Notes: generated by a model from the letters alone, not told the origin. A stretch of 39,863 nt of DNA from a virus (IMGVR_UViG_3300033076_001356:1-39863); one strand, 5' to 3'. Positions 14,562-39,863 are shown, numbered from the stretch's first letter. Program-made: numbers and translations.

Positions 14562-15116
14562 CTACATGCAATATTGCGGTCGCTTTGTTAATATGGCCAC
14601 AAGATCTACGCAGGCATTAATGTTATAGCGCATAAAAAACCCCTTGGTTTCCTCGTTTCTATGCGCTACGTTCGGGTCATTCGGGTCTAAAGTTCCAATC
14701 AGTGTATAGTCGAAGTCACAAGTATAGCCTGTGTGAGGCGCGTTTACATCCCGCCATGATTTTTGCAAGTAAAAGTAAAGCCAAGATGTAATGGGCGGCC
14801 ACTGATGAGTTGGATCTCCATAAGCCCTCTCGTTTGACCAGTGCGGGGTAGTTAACCGTGCCGTAGTTTTTGGCTTCATGACGCGATATAGCTCGTTAAA
14901 AAATGATATGCGTTCTGAATTGGTGAGATGCTCAAGGAAGTGGCTAGAGTGTACCTCGTCTACCGAGTTATCCTCAAACGGCCACGGGGTAATACGTACA
15001 TCGTGGACAATATCAACGCCATCGAACCCGATAGCGTCAATGCCAGTGAATCCAGCGAGTTTGTTCTTGCCGCAGCCGATGTCGAGTTTGATTGGTTTGA
15101 TTTCTTTGTCTGTCAT
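14562..15116 (-). CDS. Class I SAM-dependent methyltransferase (Methyltransf_11-like)
   Basis: LDIGCG...GID...HDV...WPFEDNSVDEVHSSHFLEHL...ELYRVMKP...DPTH. Confidence 0.88.
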   Translation of the reverse strand: MTDKEIKPIKLDIGCGKNKLAGFTGIDAIGFDGVDIVHDVRITPWPFEDNSVDEVHSSHFLEHLTNSERISFFNELYRVMKPKTTARLTTPHWSNERAYGDPTHQWPPITSWLYFYLQKSWRDVNAPHTGYTCDFDYTLIGTLDPNDPNVAHRNEETKGFFMRYNINACVDLVAILTKRPQYCM

Positions 15117-16303: not shown

Positions 16304-18433
16304 TCAGATATTCCTAAATATTAGCCCCACATTTGCTCTCGCATAATAGGAGCCTGTCTGGTTTATAGCACTCAAGGATACAGTAGGCGGCACCGTGCTA
16401 ATCGCAGCAGAGTATATCCCTTGACCACCGAACAGTCCAGTGCTTGTATTTGTCGCATCAGTGAAATTGCCAACTTGAGGAACGGCGCTTGAGTATATCG
16501 GGCCTCCCATCACAGACCATGTATTACCAAGCGCGGTTGTGGCAGTTCCTACGCTTGATGTGTTTGTGCTAATCCCAAAACCAACATAATACTCGCCAGG
16601 CGCGAATGTCATATTCATCCCAACGGACATCGGACGAATAGCATGAGCAATAACCTGCGTGGCTCCAGCTGTATTGGATGCCAGTGTTGTATTCCATTGG
16701 TTTTGAGCGCTAGTCAGACTGCTCAATGTATTGCCGTTTTTTGTATAAATACAAGCGAAAGCTGTTACAGCCAATCCCCAAGTATTAGCTGTCGCACTAG
16801 ATGCGATAGATACCAAAAATGGAACATCGACTCTAGTTGCAATCAGGTCGTCGTCCATTTGTACGCGGTTTATGGAAAACGAACCATTGCCCATCGCAGC
16901 TACAGCTGTCAGGTTTCCGGGAGGCCATTGTAAGCGCTGAGATATTGTTGCATTGTTATTTATTGCTAATGACAATGTGAATCCATTAGACGCCGAGGCT
17001 GTAGTGCCGCTTAAATTAGTAAGAGCAAGCGTGGGATTACCATGACTGTGTGTACTATTCCAAGATCCAGTTACAGTACCCGCATCCAGCCCAAAAGATA
17101 CACCACCGCCATCCCCGAAATTGATCGTTGCAAGATTGCTGGAAGTAGTTCCGGCAGAAACCCCCACAGATCCGCCTCCACCAGGAGCTGCCACTGAAAT
17201 AGCCAGTCCGTTGGAGTTTAGGGTAATGCTTGCGTTTGTGGCGCTGGTGCCAACCCCCGCATAGCTACGCGCGTCCAGTGAAAGCCCTGCGCTATTAACA
17301 GTCCATGTCACGTTAGATTGCGCAGTAGCCAGCCCGATGCCGTCATTACTCGCACGCGCCGTAGTTAAGTAATCTGTCTTAACCGTCGCAAAAACCCCTT
17401 GCGTACCCGTAGAAAATGACACTCCATTGCTGTTGGCAAATGAAAGCGTACTAAAATTAGCGGAGCCATTCGCGGCGGAATAAGCAACCGGCTGCGTTGA
17501 CTGCTGGGTAATACCATTATGGCTGGCTGTGAGGGTGGACGCATTACCTCCAAAGGTAATCCCATTGCCATTGGCGAAGGATATATTACCTGTGGACCCC
17601 AGAATGCTGACCATATTCTGGGTCTGCACAGACTGGGAGGTTATGCCGTTGTGACTAGCCGTCACCGCACTTCCCGCAGATGTGCCAAAACTTATACCGT
17701 TAGCATTCGAAAATGAAAGAGTACTGAACGCATAGCTACCATTGGCAGCAGATGCCGCTACGGGCTGAACTGACTGGGACGCCGCGCTTAGTGAAAGCGT
17801 AAGCCCCGCACTATTACTGGCAGTAGTTCCACTAAGATTCGTAAGGTTAAGCGTCGGATTCCCATGGCTGTGACTACTTGGCGCGTAGTCAGTACGAACA
17901 GTTGCAAACACTCCCTGTGTGCCTGTACTAAAACTCACCCCATTGCTGTCGGCAAACGGTAGCGTCTGGAATGTGGCGCTGCCGTTACCTGCGGAATACG
18001 CCTGATTAGATTGGCTTGTAAGTCCATTATGGCTCGCAGTAACAGCACTACCGGCTGAGGTGCCGAAACTGACCCCATTCGCGTTACTAAAACTGAGCGT
18101 GGAAAATGCGTAACTACCATTCTGTCCCGAAACTGCGACGGGCTGCGTAGACTGCGCAGTTATGCCGTTGTGGCTGGCAGTCATTACCCCATTATCCGAC
18201 AACCCAAAAGTAACGCCGTTACTGTTCGAGAAGTTTACTGTCCCCGTGCTTCGACTATTGACCCCTCCCGAGATTACTACACCTCCGGCGCTTCCGCCAA
18301 CCGGGACCCCTCCAGGGGTGGATCCATCTCCCACGTACAAAAGTTGGCCATCAGTTACCCAAATAGGCTCGCCATTTGCAGGGGTAATACTTGTCCGATC
18401 TGTGGAAGCCCCACGGCGAAACTTCAATGTCAT
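16304..18433 (-). CDS. Ser/Thr/Asn/Gly-rich fibre or adhesin with an Mtd_N-like N-terminus and internal repeats
   Basis: LKFRRG...PANGEPIWVTD...LYVGDGST. Repeated STLSFSNANGVSFG, TASHNGIT and SHGNPTL units. Confidence 0.8.
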   Translation of the reverse strand: MTLKFRRGASTDRTSITPANGEPIWVTDGQLLYVGDGSTPGGVPVGGSAGGVVISGGVNSRSTGTVNFSNSNGVTFGLSDNGVMTASHNGITAQSTQPVAVSGQNGSYAFSTLSFSNANGVSFGTSAGSAVTASHNGLTSQSNQAYSAGNGSATFQTLPFADSNGVSFSTGTQGVFATVRTDYAPSSHSHGNPTLNLTNLSGTTASNSAGLTLSLSAASQSVQPVAASAANGSYAFSTLSFSNANGISFGTSAGSAVTASHNGITSQSVQTQNMVSILGSTGNISFANGNGITFGGNASTLTASHNGITQQSTQPVAYSAANGSANFSTLSFANSNGVSFSTGTQGVFATVKTDYLTTARASNDGIGLATAQSNVTWTVNSAGLSLDARSYAGVGTSATNASITLNSNGLAISVAAPGGGGSVGVSAGTTSSNLATINFGDGGGVSFGLDAGTVTGSWNSTHSHGNPTLALTNLSGTTASASNGFTLSLAINNNATISQRLQWPPGNLTAVAAMGNGSFSINRVQMDDDLIATRVDVPFLVSIASSATANTWGLAVTAFACIYTKNGNTLSSLTSAQNQWNTTLASNTAGATQVIAHAIRPMSVGMNMTFAPGEYYVGFGISTNTSSVGTATTALGNTWSVMGGPIYSSAVPQVGNFTDATNTSTGLFGGQGIYSAAISTVPPTVSLSAINQTGSYYARANVGLIFRNI

Positions 18434-37231: not shown

Positions 37232-37358
37232 CCCCAACCTCCTTGCGCAACGGCGCCTGCTCCAGTACACGCCCTATCTCTGTCCTGCGCTCTTCGACGG
37301 GCAGCTCCAAGAGCTCAGCGCGCAATTTCTGCAACCGGTCAACTAACAACACGTTCAT
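37212..37358 (-). CDS. Small hypothetical protein (48 aa)
   Basis: [17 protein letters not shown]...VEEG*, GAGGAGG RBS, fills the gap. Confidence 0.5.
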
Positions 37359-37710
37359 CCACCACCTCCTCTACAAATTCACACTCGGCTACCTGCTCCA
37401 GTGCGGGGGCCTTATTGAGCGGGCTCTGCGGCACAAAGGATCGATACTCAATCGTTTTGGCCTCATTATTCCCACCGGTGTCCTTGGGGGCGAGCTTCAT
37501 CAACATCTGCAAGAAATCCCCGTAGTTATGCTCTTCGGCCGCCCACAACGCCAACCGGGGAACCCCCCCGATCAATTCAAAGGTTTCAATGAAATTCTGT
37601 TCTATCTGCTTTCGGGAGAAGAGGTTGACCACATTGCCATTCGACTCAAGCGCCTGGCGCTCTCGGGCAGAAAGTTTGTTCTGGAGCTGAATCATGAATT
37701 CGTCATTCAT
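37339..37710 (-). CDS. terS: Putative terminase small subunit
   Basis: FIETFELIGGVPRLALWA...FLQMLMKLAPK, first gene of the late operon. Start position uncertain. Confidence 0.65.
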   Translation of the reverse strand: MNDEFMIQLQNKLSARERQALESNGNVVNLFSRKQIEQNFIETFELIGGVPRLALWAAEEHNYGDFLQMLMKLAPKDTGGNNEAKTIEYRSFVPQSPLNKAPALEQVAECEFVEEVVDERVVS

Positions 37711-37743
37711 GGGGCACTGTGCTCTACAGGCATGGGGAAGTAG

Positions 37744-37784
37744 TAGAGTACCACTGACCACGATACGAAACTAGTGGTACCAAG
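37744..37784. promoter_or_regulatory. Inverted pair of operator-like motifs upstream of the late operon
   Basis: GTACCACT (37748-37755), 17 bp, AGTGGTAC (37773-37780). A possible extended -10 (TGG-TACTCT) lies on the - strand. Confidence 0.55.
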
Positions 37785-37938
37785 TGCTGGGACAGAAAAA
37801 TTTCGCGCTTGGCGGGGGAAGCACCACGCCCCACCCCCACTTTTTCCTTTACCCCCGGGTGGGGGTCGCTAAACGCCAGGCACTTAGCGCCAAATACTAC
37901 GCACAAATAACTAAGCGCTAAGTACTAGGTAGTTACCA

Positions 37939-37966
37939 CATTCGCATAATATGCATTATGTTAAAT
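37939..37966 (+). other. XerC/XerD dif-like recombination site
   Basis: CATTCGCATAA-TATGCA-TTATGTTAAAT. The XerD arm is identical to E. coli dif (GGTGCGCATAA-TGTATA-TTATGTTAAAT). Confidence 0.85.
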
Positions 37967-37968
37967 AG

Positions 37969-37981
37969 TAAGTTATTGATT
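37969..37981 (-). promoter_or_regulatory. IHF consensus site
   Basis: Reverse complement AATCAATAACTTA matches WATCAANNNNTTR, 2 bp from the dif site. Confidence 0.65.
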
Positions 37982-38182
37982 AATAAGGCTTTTTTGTTTT
38001 GGGGTCGATTTCGTCTGCATTTGTGCAACACATAGTCAACTAAATGCGCTGCATATTGCGTTTAGTGCTAAGCGCCATGTGCTTAGCGGGGAGTGCCAGC
38101 CACAAAATCGGCTTCGTGTCTAGTTGTACCATCTTTTCTAAATGAGAAAAGCTCTCAACAACATCTACGTATTACTACGTAA

Positions 38183-38203
38183 AAATGTTATAGTATAACA
38201 TTT
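38183..38203. promoter_or_regulatory. Zur-box-like perfect palindrome
   Basis: AAATGTTATA-G-TATAACATTT versus the gammaproteobacterial Zur consensus GAAATGTTATA-N-TATAACATTTC. Confidence 0.75.
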
Positions 38204-38279
38204 GTAACGGCTTGGGGGGTAATTTCAAGTCGCTCAAAAATATGTGAAATTTGAAAAAAACAGGCAAAAACTCCTTACA

Positions 38280-38292
38280 AATCAATAGGTTA
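38280..38292 (+). promoter_or_regulatory. IHF consensus site
   Basis: AATCAATAGGTTA, with A-tracts upstream. Confidence 0.65.
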
Positions 38293-38295
38293 CGG

Positions 38296-38312
38296 TGCAC
38301 CATTTTGGTGCA
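38296..38312. promoter_or_regulatory. NtrC binding-site consensus
   Basis: TGCACCA-TTT-TGGTGCA, a perfect match to TGCACCA-N3-TGGTGCA. Confidence 0.75.
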
Positions 38313-38466
38313 TTCCGGCACCAGAACCCTATAGTATTTATTAAAATTAATTATATAGTCTATATAAATACGCTAAGTCCTTGGCGCTAAACGCTTTTCC
38401 GCCTCCCTGGCTCCCCCGTGGCGCTCCGTTATTGCTTGACTCCTCGTTGCATCTGACGCTTAGTCA

Positions 38467-38487
38467 GAATGTTACATTATAACATTT
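38467..38487. promoter_or_regulatory. Second Zur-box-like site
   Basis: GAATGTTACA-T-TATAACATTT. Confidence 0.65.
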
Positions 38488-38579
38488 GTATGGGCAATTT
38501 CCGACTTTTCCCGAACTGCCCAACGCTTATATCTGAACACTATTCTTATTCACTTTTAATCTAAAAATACTTCTCAATC

Positions 38580-38611
38580 TAGTGGTACTAAGTACTAAAT
38601 TCGGCTATATT
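38580..38611 (+). promoter_or_regulatory. Operator-like motif and probable early promoter
   Basis: TAGTGGTACTAAG at 38580-38592 is identical to 7548-7560. A -10-like TATATT lies at 38606-38611. Confidence 0.5.
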
Positions 38612-38660
38612 AACACTCAACGGGACGCACACCGCGCCCAATACCAAGAGGAACCAAGCC

Positions 38661-38828
38661 ATGCAAAGCATTAAAAAACGCTACTCTATCCGGATAAGCT
38701 ACCCCAGCGGTAGGGTGAGTTATATGTCCCATAGGGACCGTACCGAGTGGTGTCTACGCACTGCCCGTAAGCACCTAGCCGATTGGGTGCACCTTCACGG
38801 CATACACGCTGAACTGGTGGAGGTGTAA
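38661..38828 (+). CDS. Early hypothetical protein (55 aa)
   Basis: MQSIKKRYSIRISYPSG...AELVEV*, GAGGA RBS. Confidence 0.65.
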   Translation: MQSIKKRYSIRISYPSGRVSYMSHRDRTEWCLRTARKHLADWVHLHGIHAELVEV

Positions 38829-39154: not shown

Positions 39155-39349
39155 ATGACAGCCAAAATAGTCCCGTTTCCCAACAGTAAGCGCTTTGCGG
39201 TTGAGCTCGTAGGGAGTTTCTACCGAGTGCGTTACTCGGTGGGTGAAGAAGTGAGGGTATCGCCCCCGCTCTTTGCGTACTCGTTGCGCCAGGCGCTAAG
39301 CATGTTGCCAGAAGGGGCAAAATACATTAATCACAGTGAGGGTACATAG
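39155..39349 (+). CDS. Early hypothetical protein
   Basis: MTAKIVPFPNSK..., AGGA RBS. Confidence 0.6.
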   Translation: MTAKIVPFPNSKRFAVELVGSFYRVRYSVGEEVRVSPPLFAYSLRQALSMLPEGAKYINHSEGT

Positions 39350-39350
39350 T

Positions 39351-39863
39351 ATGACTACGACGATATACAAATTGACAGATGAAAGTATGCGCACCTATGG
39401 CGGGTATAGCTGGGTGTTGGGAGAGTGGCGCGAAACGGACGGGGACGGGGAATTATGCGGTGCGGGATGGCTCCACGCGTATACCTGCCCCCGGTTGGCG
39501 CTATTCTTGAACCCTATACACGCCAACTTTAGCGCGCCCCGCCTATTTCGTGGGGAGGCCGACGGTAAATTCCTCGACGATAGGGGGCTGAAAGTGGGGT
39601 ATACGCGCATGCGTATAGTGGAGGAGTTGCCCGTAGAGCACATTAACCTGAGCCAGCGCGTAGCGTTCAGTATTTTATGCGCGCTCGAGGCATGTGGTAC
39701 CCCGGAATTTGTACAATGGGCCGAGGGGTGGTTGACGGGTAGGGACAGATCTTCCCGCGCTGCCTACGCCGCCGACGCTGCTGCCTACGCCGCCCGCGCT
39801 GCTGCCTACGCCGCCGACGCTGCTGCTGCCCACGCTGCCCGCGCTGCTGCCTACGCCGCCGAC
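39351..39863 (+). CDS. Hypothetical protein with Ala-rich C-terminal repeats, 5' part (continues across the window junction to base 81)
   Basis: ATG at 39351 opens 171 codons to the window end (MTTTIYKLTDESMRTYGG...CGAGWLHAY...WAEGWLTG...AAYAADAAA). It joins in frame to bases 1-81. Confidence 0.8.
   Translation, partial: MTTTIYKLTDESMRTYGGYSWVLGEWRETDGDGELCGAGWLHAYTCPRLALFLNPIHANFSAPRLFRGEADGKFLDDRGLKVGYTRMRIVEELPVEHINLSQRVAFSILCALEACGTPEFVQWAEGWLTGRDRSSRAAYAADAAAYAARAAAYAADAAAAHAARAAAYAAD
39756..39863 (+). repeat. Imperfect tandem repeat (GCTGCTGCCTACGCCGCCGAC / GCTGCCCACGCTGCCCGC units), continuing into bases 1-29
   Basis: Directly visible. 39819-39847 is identical to 1-29. Confidence 0.85.

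What the first reader, a model, noticed from the sequence alone, without database searches (positions are those of the whole stretch)
37760..38660. Gene-free ~900 bp region is an array of binding sites for unrelated host DNA-binding proteins
Seen within about 550 bp: a dif site (37939), IHF (37969 and 38280), a Fur-like TGAGAAAAGCTCTCA (38143), Zur boxes (38183 and 38467) and a perfect NtrC box (38296). There are also unassigned inverted repeats such as TCTGAC-N5-GTCAGA (38452-38468) and CTAAGC-N7-GCTTAG (~38068-38086). Established: these match known gammaproteobacterial consensus motifs. No zinc-uptake or nitrogen-assimilation genes are adjacent, and most sites are far from any start codon. 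Inference: the region lies between TerS and the early genes, probably near the packaging end or first-injected DNA. It may recruit host proteins structurally (end protection, injection, nucleoid mimicry, regulator titration) or integrate Zn/N/Fe status into a lifestyle decision.
Basis: partly seen in the sequence, partly recalled or inferred. Interest (0 to 1): 0.85.

Follow-up and report, generated by a model that had tools for sequence, protein, structure and literature searches.

The report
Host-protein docking pad at phage end
An uncultured phage with no detectable recombinase gene carries, beside its packaging genes, textbook DNA sites for host proteins (XerC/XerD, IHF, Zur, NtrC); relatives carry the same Xer site or other host sites at that spot, so the phage likely loads host proteins onto its genome end and probably uses XerC/XerD to join its ends.

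Summary
The window is a whole 39.9-kb podophage-type genome with no integrase hit. The dif, Zur and NtrC matches are reached by 0 of 10,000 shuffles, two IHF sites by 17; one Fur-like site alone is weak. All lie on the outer side of a family-conserved ~90-bp element upstream of TerS, likely the packaging/end signal. In 12 of 36 element-bearing loci a dif lies 32-324 bp outside it, never inside; other relatives carry LexA, DnaA, sigma-54 or NtrC sites; 51 of 73 clusters show none of the strong motifs; Zur is unique to this phage. Cultured lytic phages (EdH4, Hena1, RpT1) carry dif inside their terminal repeats, in EdH4 with sigma-54 and Fur-like boxes. An unrelated family has NtrC/SlmA/Fur arrays beside its terminase. 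Best reading (0.5): a host-protein docking pad on the genome end, dif probably letting XerCD join the end repeats, the regulator boxes being swappable extras. Ends, binding and function are untested. Ten literature searches found only single-protein precedents (T5 DnaA boxes, CtrA in repeats); this scan noted similar arrays before on other genomes.

The parts
37339..37710 (-). Putative terminase small subunit (123 aa), first gene of the late block; used as family marker
   Evidence: No PHROG or Pfam hit; named TerS from its place upstream of TerL (inference); 37 homologues besides itself
37772..37785 (+). Likely phage-own operator/promoter motif TAGTGGTACCAAGT (also 38580, 7548, 13742, 2658)
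   Evidence: 5 matches against 0.28 expected
37782..37873 (-). Family-conserved ~90-bp 'anchor' (C-run, A-rich spacer, G-run, AAAATGTG-like end); likely packaging or terminal-repeat signal
   Evidence: Profile from 20 seed loci finds it in non-seed loci too; no fold better than shuffles, no Rfam match; role inferred
37867..38393 (.).
   Evidence: 4 matches, all in this region; 7 of 100 whole-genome shuffles reach 4
37939..37966 (+). dif-type site: XerC arm 37939-37949, core TATGCA, XerD arm 37956-37966; 98 bp outside the anchor
   Evidence: arms match the proteobacterial table in PMC2731167
37969..37981 (-). IHF consensus site, 2 bp from the XerD arm
   Evidence: nearly the same dif-IHF junction in coliphage VogelGryff
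38143..38157 (+). Fur-like 7-1-7 box (3 mismatches; weak alone)
   Evidence: boxes of similar quality lie in the EdH4 and Hena1 terminal repeats
38182..38204 (.). Zur box 1, perfect 10-1-10 palindrome
38280..38292 (+). IHF consensus site 2
38296..38312 (.). NtrC box, perfect; no sigma-54 promoter found in the region
38325..38370 (.). AT-rich tract with perfect palindrome TTATATAGTCTATATAA (38351-38367); possible replication-origin melting element (inference)
38452..38468 (.). Unassigned inverted repeat TCTGAC-N5-GTCAGA abutting Zur box 2
38466..38488 (.). Zur box 2; holds the genome's only perfect extended -10 (TGnTATAAT, minus strand, pointing to TerS), which partly follows from the Zur consensus itself
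38562..38576 (-). Second Fur-like box (3 mismatches)
38580..38593 (+). Likely phage-own motif TAGTGGTACTAAGT ahead of the first early ORF
38661..38828 (+). First early ORF (55 aa), no family hit

Best explanation
The gene-free stretch carries consensus-grade DNA sites for host XerC/XerD, IHF, Zur and NtrC on the outer side of a conserved element next to the terminase genes, and it is likely the phage's genome end, where host proteins would dock and XerC/XerD would probably join the two end-repeat copies. Shown: the sites, their position, the recurrence of dif at a nearly fixed distance in relatives, and dif inside the end repeats of cultured lytic phages. Inferred: (1) the anchor marks the terminase cut or repeat edge, so that dif is present twice per virion DNA or once per unit of a concatemer; (2) host XerCD, possibly shaped by IHF bound 2 bp away, recombines these identical copies to give a circle or monomers, as Cre-loxP does for P1 but without a phage recombinase, and a private core keeps it from the host dif; (3) Zur, NtrC and Fur-like boxes are lineage-specific picks from an exchangeable menu (LexA, DnaA, sigma-54, SlmA elsewhere), selected for tight binding on the first-entering DNA more than for the signal each senses.
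For: dif lies outside the anchor in 12 of 31 loci and inside in 0; any panel motif outside in 18, inside in 5. 10 of 12 difs lie 98-215 bp from the anchor. In L138 anchor and dif are inverted together relative to TerS, and in L158 and L164 genes lie between them and TerS, so dif follows the anchor. All 14 family difs have a 6-bp core, 13 different cores, none the common TGTATA, first base a pyrimidine in 14 of 14; no 5-, 7-, 8-, 9-, 11- or 12-bp variants. No tyrosine integrase in 27 records (0 of 11 near-complete), no resolvase in 5, no convincing TerS relative in 185,579 bacterial and archaeal genomes. 11 of 120 unselected viral dif loci have a TerL relative close by, most with a similar C-run beside dif. 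Cultured phages: dif in the annotated 519-bp repeat of Hena1, in a 210-bp end repeat of RpT1, and in the 459-bp identical end repeat of EdH4 with a sigma-54 site and four Fur-like boxes; their cores differ from the dif cores listed for their host genus. GA/TC is lower outside than inside the anchor in 20 of 22 loci, as expected for first-entering DNA that avoids host attack (inference). Mixed arrays recur in an unrelated family: around 120 viral NtrC boxes, 95 more NtrC, 29 sigma-54, 15 Fur and 89 SlmA-like sites lie within 500 bp and none beyond 1 kb; a terminase gene is adjacent in 16 of 36 hand-picked loci.
Against: The window's ends are not mapped; only contigs exist and no cultured phage has this TerS. 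Most relatives lack dif: 11 of 73 clusters within 1 kb of TerS, 2 of 10 near-complete records, so Xer joining is not needed family-wide; 51 of 73 clusters show none of the six strong motifs. Unpaired XerD half-sites in L164 and L242 fit binding better than recombination. Chromosomal dif needs FtsK (PMC5357621, passages), yet the window has no KOPS within 400 bp and the family shows no orientation bias (1 aimed at the XerD side, 3 away, 4 at the XerC side). Some LexA and sigma-54 sites lie inside the anchor. Family-wide, IHF (5 of 73; shuffles reach 5) and DnaA (8 of 73; shuffles reach 10) are not clearly enriched. dif cores vary between host species and TATGCA is one base from the Dechloromonas core. 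The near/far controls compare intergenic with mostly coding DNA, and 20 of the anchor loci seeded the profile.
Confidence: 0.5

Rival explanations
1. Binding only: XerCD, IHF, Zur and NtrC are used as tight DNA binders that cap, shield, tether or pull in the first-entering end; no recombination takes place and any abundant host binder will do.
For: Different relatives use unrelated proteins at the same place (7 tandem LexA boxes in L210, 17 DnaA boxes in L134, sigma-54 sites); unpaired XerD arms; sites match the consensus as well as or better than natural operators; T5 DnaA-box tether proposal (10.1101/866236).
Against: RecBCD pushes through and evicts tandem protein arrays (10.1101/142224, abstract); a strict 6-bp core in 14 of 14 family sites, although 7-10-bp cores exist in about 140 other viral stretches; the window has only one or two sites per protein.
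Confidence: 0.22
2. Transcriptional sensing: Zur, NtrC and perhaps Fur repress or time phage promoters so that growth is tied to host zinc, nitrogen or iron status, like CtrA-based lytic deferment.
For: CtrA sites cluster in phage gap regions and terminal repeats and regulate phage promoters experimentally (PMC9437464, abstract and passages). Zur box 2 holds the only perfect extended -10 in the genome. In L002 a LexA box follows a TATAAT directly.
Against: No sigma-54 site for NtrC to serve; no consensus sigma-70 promoter found in the region; close relatives use different signals or none; dif, IHF, DnaA and SlmA are not nutrient sensors; the extended -10 is part of the Zur consensus.
Confidence: 0.18
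3. Decoy: as phage DNA amplifies, perfect operators titrate host repressors (Zur, Fur, NtrC, LexA) or load division and replication factors, shifting host physiology towards uptake and away from division. They sit at the end because it is the only free non-coding space.
For: Consensus-perfect sites far from genes; arrays of up to 7 NtrC boxes and many SlmA-like sites in other phages, all within one cluster per record.
Against: Does not explain the narrow position of dif relative to the anchor; one or two sites per genome is a small sink early in infection.
Confidence: 0.12
4. Integration: the dif-like site is an attP for XerCD-mediated insertion at the host dif (IMEX).
For: No phage integrase; IMEX precedent; the core is one base from a known betaproteobacterial core.
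Against: No family member found in 185,579 genomes; 13 different cores in the family; cultured lytic phages keep the site with non-host cores in their end repeats; no repressor found.
Confidence: 0.05
5. The palindromes are sites for phage-encoded proteins (origin, terminase or repressor binding) that resemble host motifs by chance.
For: The region does hold likely phage-own motifs and an AT-rich origin-like tract.
Against: Three long, unrelated host consensuses are matched at 0 of 10,000 each; no Xer-, Fur- or NtrC-like gene was found in the phage.
Confidence: 0.03

Closest known systems
CtrA-site clusters in gap regions and terminal repeats of alphaproteobacterial phages (PMC9437464; abstract and passages seen)
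   Same: Host-regulator sites concentrated in the large intergenic or terminal region, with turnover between relatives
   Different: One regulator with shown promoter control; here several unrelated proteins including a recombinase, no matching promoter for NtrC, nothing tested
T5 injection-stop region with 8 DnaA boxes (bioRxiv 10.1101/866236; first sixth of the text and passages seen)
   Same: Host-protein boxes in a non-coding stretch of the terminal repeat, proposed structural use; L134 has two DnaA-box clusters
   Different: T5 is a two-step-injecting phage with a 10-kb repeat; in silico only; the word dif does not occur in that paper; this window has no DnaA box in the region
Chromosomal dif / XerC-XerD / FtsK (PMC2731167, PMC5357621; passages seen)
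   Same: 11-6-11 layout, both arms near consensus, intergenic
   Different: On a phage beside the packaging genes; core varies between relatives; no KOPS polarity nearby
Plasmid Xer sites cer and psi with accessory sequences (PMC5357621; passages seen)
   Same: A mobile element borrows host XerCD to act on its own DNA; host proteins bind next to the core
   Different: No ArgR box found; PepA and ArcA sites not tested; accessory candidates here are IHF and lineage-specific regulators
P1 terminal redundancy and Cre-loxP (circularisation through terminal repeats: bioRxiv 10.1101/2021.07.08.451572, passages; loxP near pac is recalled)
   Same: Recombination near the packaging site to circularise or monomerise phage DNA
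   Different: P1 encodes its recombinase and is a plasmid prophage; this phage shows none
IMEX (CTXphi, VGJphi, TLCphi, gokushoviruses)
   Same: dif-like site without own integrase
   Different: No integrated relatives found; cores are private; tailed phage

Membership tests
dif-type XerCD site | 11-bp XerC arm, 6-bp core, 11-bp XerD arm matching the proteobacterial consensus | tested here: met
dif-type XerCD site | KOPS polarised towards the XerD side for FtsK activation | tested here: not met
   None within 400 bp in the window; no bias in 14 family sites; 4 of 10 TerL-adjacent sites of a sister group have one
dif-type XerCD site | XerCD binding and strand exchange | not testable with these tools
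   Needs biochemistry or a reporter
IMEX attP | No own integrase | tested here: met
IMEX attP | Integrated copies at a host dif | tested here: not met
   No TerS relative in 185,579 genomes beyond two 15-residue matches; absence from that set is not proof
IMEX attP | Core homology with the host dif | tested here: inconclusive
   Host unknown; 3 differences from TGTATA, 1 from the Dechloromonas core
Proteobacterial Zur box | 23-bp palindrome GAAATGTTATA-N-TATAACATTTC | tested here: met
   2 and 4 mismatches; consensus from PMC4219657; E. coli znuABC control has 2
Proteobacterial Zur box | Upstream of zinc-homeostasis genes, overlapping their promoter | tested here: not met
   No such gene among the scanned ORFs; only an extended -10 inside box 2
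NtrC enhancer of a sigma-54 promoter (glnAp2 type) | 17-bp box TGCACCA-N3-TGGTGCA | tested here: met
   0 mismatches; pattern recalled, checked on E. coli glnA
NtrC enhancer of a sigma-54 promoter (glnAp2 type) | Paired boxes and a -24/-12 promoter within reach | tested here: not met
   One box; no sigma-54 match with under 2 mismatches in 37701-38700
Fur box | 19-bp E. coli consensus or a good 7-1-7 core | tested here: inconclusive
   No 19-mer within 5 mismatches; two 7-1-7 matches with 3 mismatches
Phage direct terminal repeat or packaging end | Read pile-ups or duplicated ends at the region | not testable with these tools
   Only assembled contigs are served; supported by analogy only (Skadi 125-bp repeat in PMC10504331)
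Lytic-deferment control region (CtrA type) | Host regulator controls phage promoters | not testable with these tools
   No RNA run listed
SlmA-site array | GTGAGTACTCAC-like sites | tested here: not met
   Best matches in the region have 2 mismatches; consensus from PMC3116907

The most novel reading that the evidence does not exclude
Many unrelated lytic tailed phages write an exchangeable menu of host chromosome and regulator sites (dif, IHF, DnaA, SlmA, LexA, Fur, Zur, NtrC, sigma-54) into their terminal DNA, so that the end is dressed as host chromosome on entry and closed by host XerCD: a protein-free, cis-encoded way to protect and circularise incoming DNA, present unnoticed in laboratory coliphages such as the rV5 group.
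Probability: 0.3. Interest if true: 0.92.

Novelty: new variant of a known kind. Interest (0 to 1): 0.78.

Why it matters
How incoming linear phage DNA survives and circularises before any phage protein is made is open for most lytic phages. This finding names candidate host proteins and exact sites, and the same dif-in-repeat layout occurs in cultured coliphages (EdH4, rV5 and BASEL relatives; a dif-IHF junction in VogelGryff), so xerC, xerD, ihf and fur mutants of E. coli K-12 can test it at once. If the regulator boxes gate promoters or soak up repressors instead, it would show lytic phages reading or steering host zinc and nitrogen status without encoding a protein.

Tried and rejected
Nucleotide search of the region against cultured phages gave only 30-40-bp matches. 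TerS has no match in cultured phages. Ends could not be mapped: one DNA holder, contigs only, no RNA holder listed; contig ends of relatives show no shared stop, and their 123-143-bp end overlaps look like assembly overlaps. The region has no tRNA or Rfam match, and the anchor does not fold better than shuffles. No LexA, FNR, CRP, ArgR, matS, parS, sigma-54, Chi or DnaA match in the region and no SlmA site. P26218, Venkman and BUCT555 intergenic stretches were read by eye and showed no dif. KOPS polarity was not found. The TerS tree (36 rows) was poorly resolved: dif needs 5 changes, 75 of 500 shuffles are as low, and one origin is not ruled out. No host genome set could be searched for the window's dif core, so the host stays unknown. 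The Atlas search of the small basic protein found next to the end in relatives gave no named family at 0.9 or above; the window lacks that gene. PMC7139368 gave no terminus data; PMC4066584 printed no NtrC consensus; passages of PMC6103462 and bioRxiv 2024.08.01.606247 added no usable Zur consensus. Paper searches without a precedent for dif in lytic-phage repeats or for mixed arrays: (listings only unless named); 'Xer' does not occur in the BASEL preprint's main text. The library lacks most subscription papers and no supplements were read, so a precedent may exist.

Full report
Setting. The window is the whole record, 39,863 bp, and closes as a circle. It encodes a primase, a PolA-type polymerase, an exonuclease, an endonuclease and a helicase, and on the other strand TerL, portal, capsid, tail and virion proteins. 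TerL is 40-43% identical to those of Rhodoferax phage P26218, Methylophilales phage Venkman and HTVC010P-type pelagiphages. No integrase, resolvase or repressor was found. The region lies between the putative TerS (37339-37710, minus) and small plus-strand early ORFs from 38661.

Observation. Every site named is present. Against 10,000 dinucleotide shuffles of the region, dif, the Zur pair and NtrC are never reached, two IHF sites 17 times, one Fur-like site 211 times. The two IHF matches are the only exact ones in the genome. Zur box 1 matches the published consensus (PMC4219657, passages) as well as the E. coli znuABC operator does, and the NtrC box matches better than the two glnA sites. 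There is no sigma-54 site for NtrC and no zinc or nitrogen gene among the scanned ORFs. The region also holds likely phage-own elements: a 14-bp motif at five sites across the genome and CTAAG-type repeats.

Relatives. A TerS alignment fetched loci from viral and metagenome contigs. I kept the 103 listed loci with about 170 bp or more upstream of the match and left out shorter or duplicate ones; with the window they formed 73 clusters. Within 1 kb upstream of TerS, dif occurs in 11 of 73, LexA boxes in 5, sigma-54 sites in 8, NtrC in 2 and Zur in 1 (the window); none of these occurs in 236 kb downstream. 22 of 73 clusters have at least one strong motif against a shuffled mean of 0.98 and a maximum of 3; 51 of 73 have none, though 23 offer under 1 kb and many are distant hits. 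IHF and DnaA are not clearly enriched family-wide, but L134 has 17 DnaA boxes in two clusters and L210 seven LexA boxes.

The anchor. Upstream of TerS the family keeps a roughly 90-bp element (C-run, A-rich spacer, G-run, AAAATGTG-like end), at 37782-37873 here. A profile from 20 seeds also finds it in non-seed loci; 36 loci were accepted, three of them by hand. dif lies outside it in 12 of 36, 32-324 bp away, 10 of 12 within 98-215 bp, in both orientations, and never inside. In L138 anchor and dif are inverted together relative to TerS; in L158 and L164 genes separate them from TerS. All 14 family difs keep a 6-bp core, with 13 different cores; L164 and L242 add unpaired XerD arms. GA/TC is depleted outside the anchor in 20 of 22 loci, strongly in some, mildly here (0.32 at 37801-38100 against 0.85 genome-wide). 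I read the anchor as the packaging or repeat-edge signal and the outer side as the first-entering end; both are inferences.

Beyond the family. Of 120 viral loci with an exact dif (a partial scan; 40 had short flanks), 11 have a TerL relative nearby, most with a C-run beside dif. In cultured phages a dif with a non-host core lies in the annotated repeat of Erwinia phage Hena1, in the 210-bp end repeat of Ralstonia phage RpT1 and in the 459-bp end repeat of coliphage EdH4, there with a sigma-54 site and four Fur-like boxes. rV5 has the same stretch, and VogelGryff has almost the window's dif-IHF junction. The Hena1 site hits 276 cultured records, 122 of them Escherichia phages; I checked only the few named. 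Around 120 exact viral NtrC boxes (partial scan), 95 more NtrC, 29 sigma-54, 15 Fur and 89 SlmA-like sites lie within 500 bp and none beyond 1 kb; these loci include near-duplicates and the control is mostly coding DNA. A terminase gene is adjacent in 16 of 36 hand-picked loci, 89 of 118 ORFs scanned. A Zur 19-mer occurs in only 19 viral stretches; of 13 examined (30 of 77 ORFs), 3 are next to packaging genes and one has a dif-like site 163 bp away.

Mechanism. Two layers fit best. dif, often with IHF, is old, widespread and position-fixed; a fixed 6-bp spacing with a free core is what self-recombination between identical copies would need, and two copies exist when the site lies in a terminal repeat. 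I therefore think host XerCD most likely joins or resolves phage ends. Against this, most relatives lack dif (2 of 10 near-complete records), half-sites occur, and no KOPS polarity is seen although chromosomal dif depends on FtsK (PMC5357621, passages). Zur, NtrC and Fur-like boxes are a second, changeable layer. Their exchange for LexA, DnaA, sigma-54 or SlmA sites suggests that tight binding counts more than the signal, but RecBCD evicts protein arrays in vitro (10.1101/142224, abstract), and the CtrA precedent shows that such clusters can control promoters (PMC9437464). Nothing here shows binding, ends, transcription or recombination.

Known and new. Published precedents seen concern one protein each: DnaA boxes in the T5 repeat (in silico) and CtrA sites in gap regions and repeats. 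Ten searches listed no paper on dif in lytic-phage terminal repeats or on mixed arrays; the library omits most subscription journals and I read no supplements. Earlier notes of this scan report dif beside terminase genes, NtrC, SlmA and Fur arrays and a GA/TC-free gene on other genomes; they are unchecked leads, not support. What this window adds, as far as I saw, is Zur as a menu item, several proteins in one 550-bp stretch, exchange of site types at one anchored position within a family, and the EdH4 repeat as a ready laboratory model.

Verdict. Observation confirmed; interpretation partly supported; new variant of a known kind; interest 0.78.

Noticed in passing
L140, L162, L177, L178, L151, L203 and other loci, 100-900 bp outside the anchor: GA/TC steps are nearly absent over 400-800 bp, often across a small basic Lys/Ala/Pro-rich gene with a weak winged-helix resemblance (e.g. 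L006:2613-2972); the window lacks that gene and has only a mild dip.
   Followed up: partly
window 2658, 7548, 13742, 37772, 38580: A near-palindromic 14-bp motif TAGTGGTACYAAGT at five sites at or between gene boundaries; probably the operator or promoter element of a phage protein not identified.
   Followed up: partly
L270, L274, L282, L283, L289, L307, L311, L334 and others: An uncultured phage family with a 330-aa terminase-like ORF carries arrays of NtrC, SlmA-like, sigma-54 and perfect Fur boxes just outside a C/G-run next to it; cultured matches to that ORF are only about 25-27% identical.
   Followed up: partly
L541:1-459 (EdH4), L393 (rV5), L389:1-519 (Hena1), L390:1-208 (RpT1): Cultured Vequintavirinae and Ralstonia Autographiviridae carry an intact-arm dif inside or at their terminal repeat, unannotated in the records fetched.
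   Followed up: yes
L394:1132-1222 (VogelGryff, Seuratvirus): dif followed after 3 bp by an IHF site and then a second IHF site, in the divergent gene gap; nearly the window's junction.
   Followed up: partly
L392:1195 (Ralstonia phage RSJ5): A perfect Fur-type palindrome in the non-coding stretch about 350 bp from the record's end.
   Followed up: no
L134, 1434-23 bp outside the anchor: Two clusters of head-to-head DnaA boxes (17 in all), recalling the T5 injection-stop layout.
   Followed up: partly
window 39336-39863 continuing to 1-79: An early ORF (DUF7666-like N-terminus) with a tandem Ala-Tyr-Ala-Ala-Asp repeat runs across the record's join.
   Followed up: no
window 16304-18433: Tail-fibre-like 709-aa protein with an Mtd_N match at its N-terminus; a methyltransferase-like ORF lies at 14562-15116.
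   Followed up: no
L006:2497-2522 and L159, about 530 bp upstream of TerS: A palindrome with the core ATTACAA-TT/TA-TTGTAAT recurs near the early promoter in two relatives; binder unknown.
   Followed up: no
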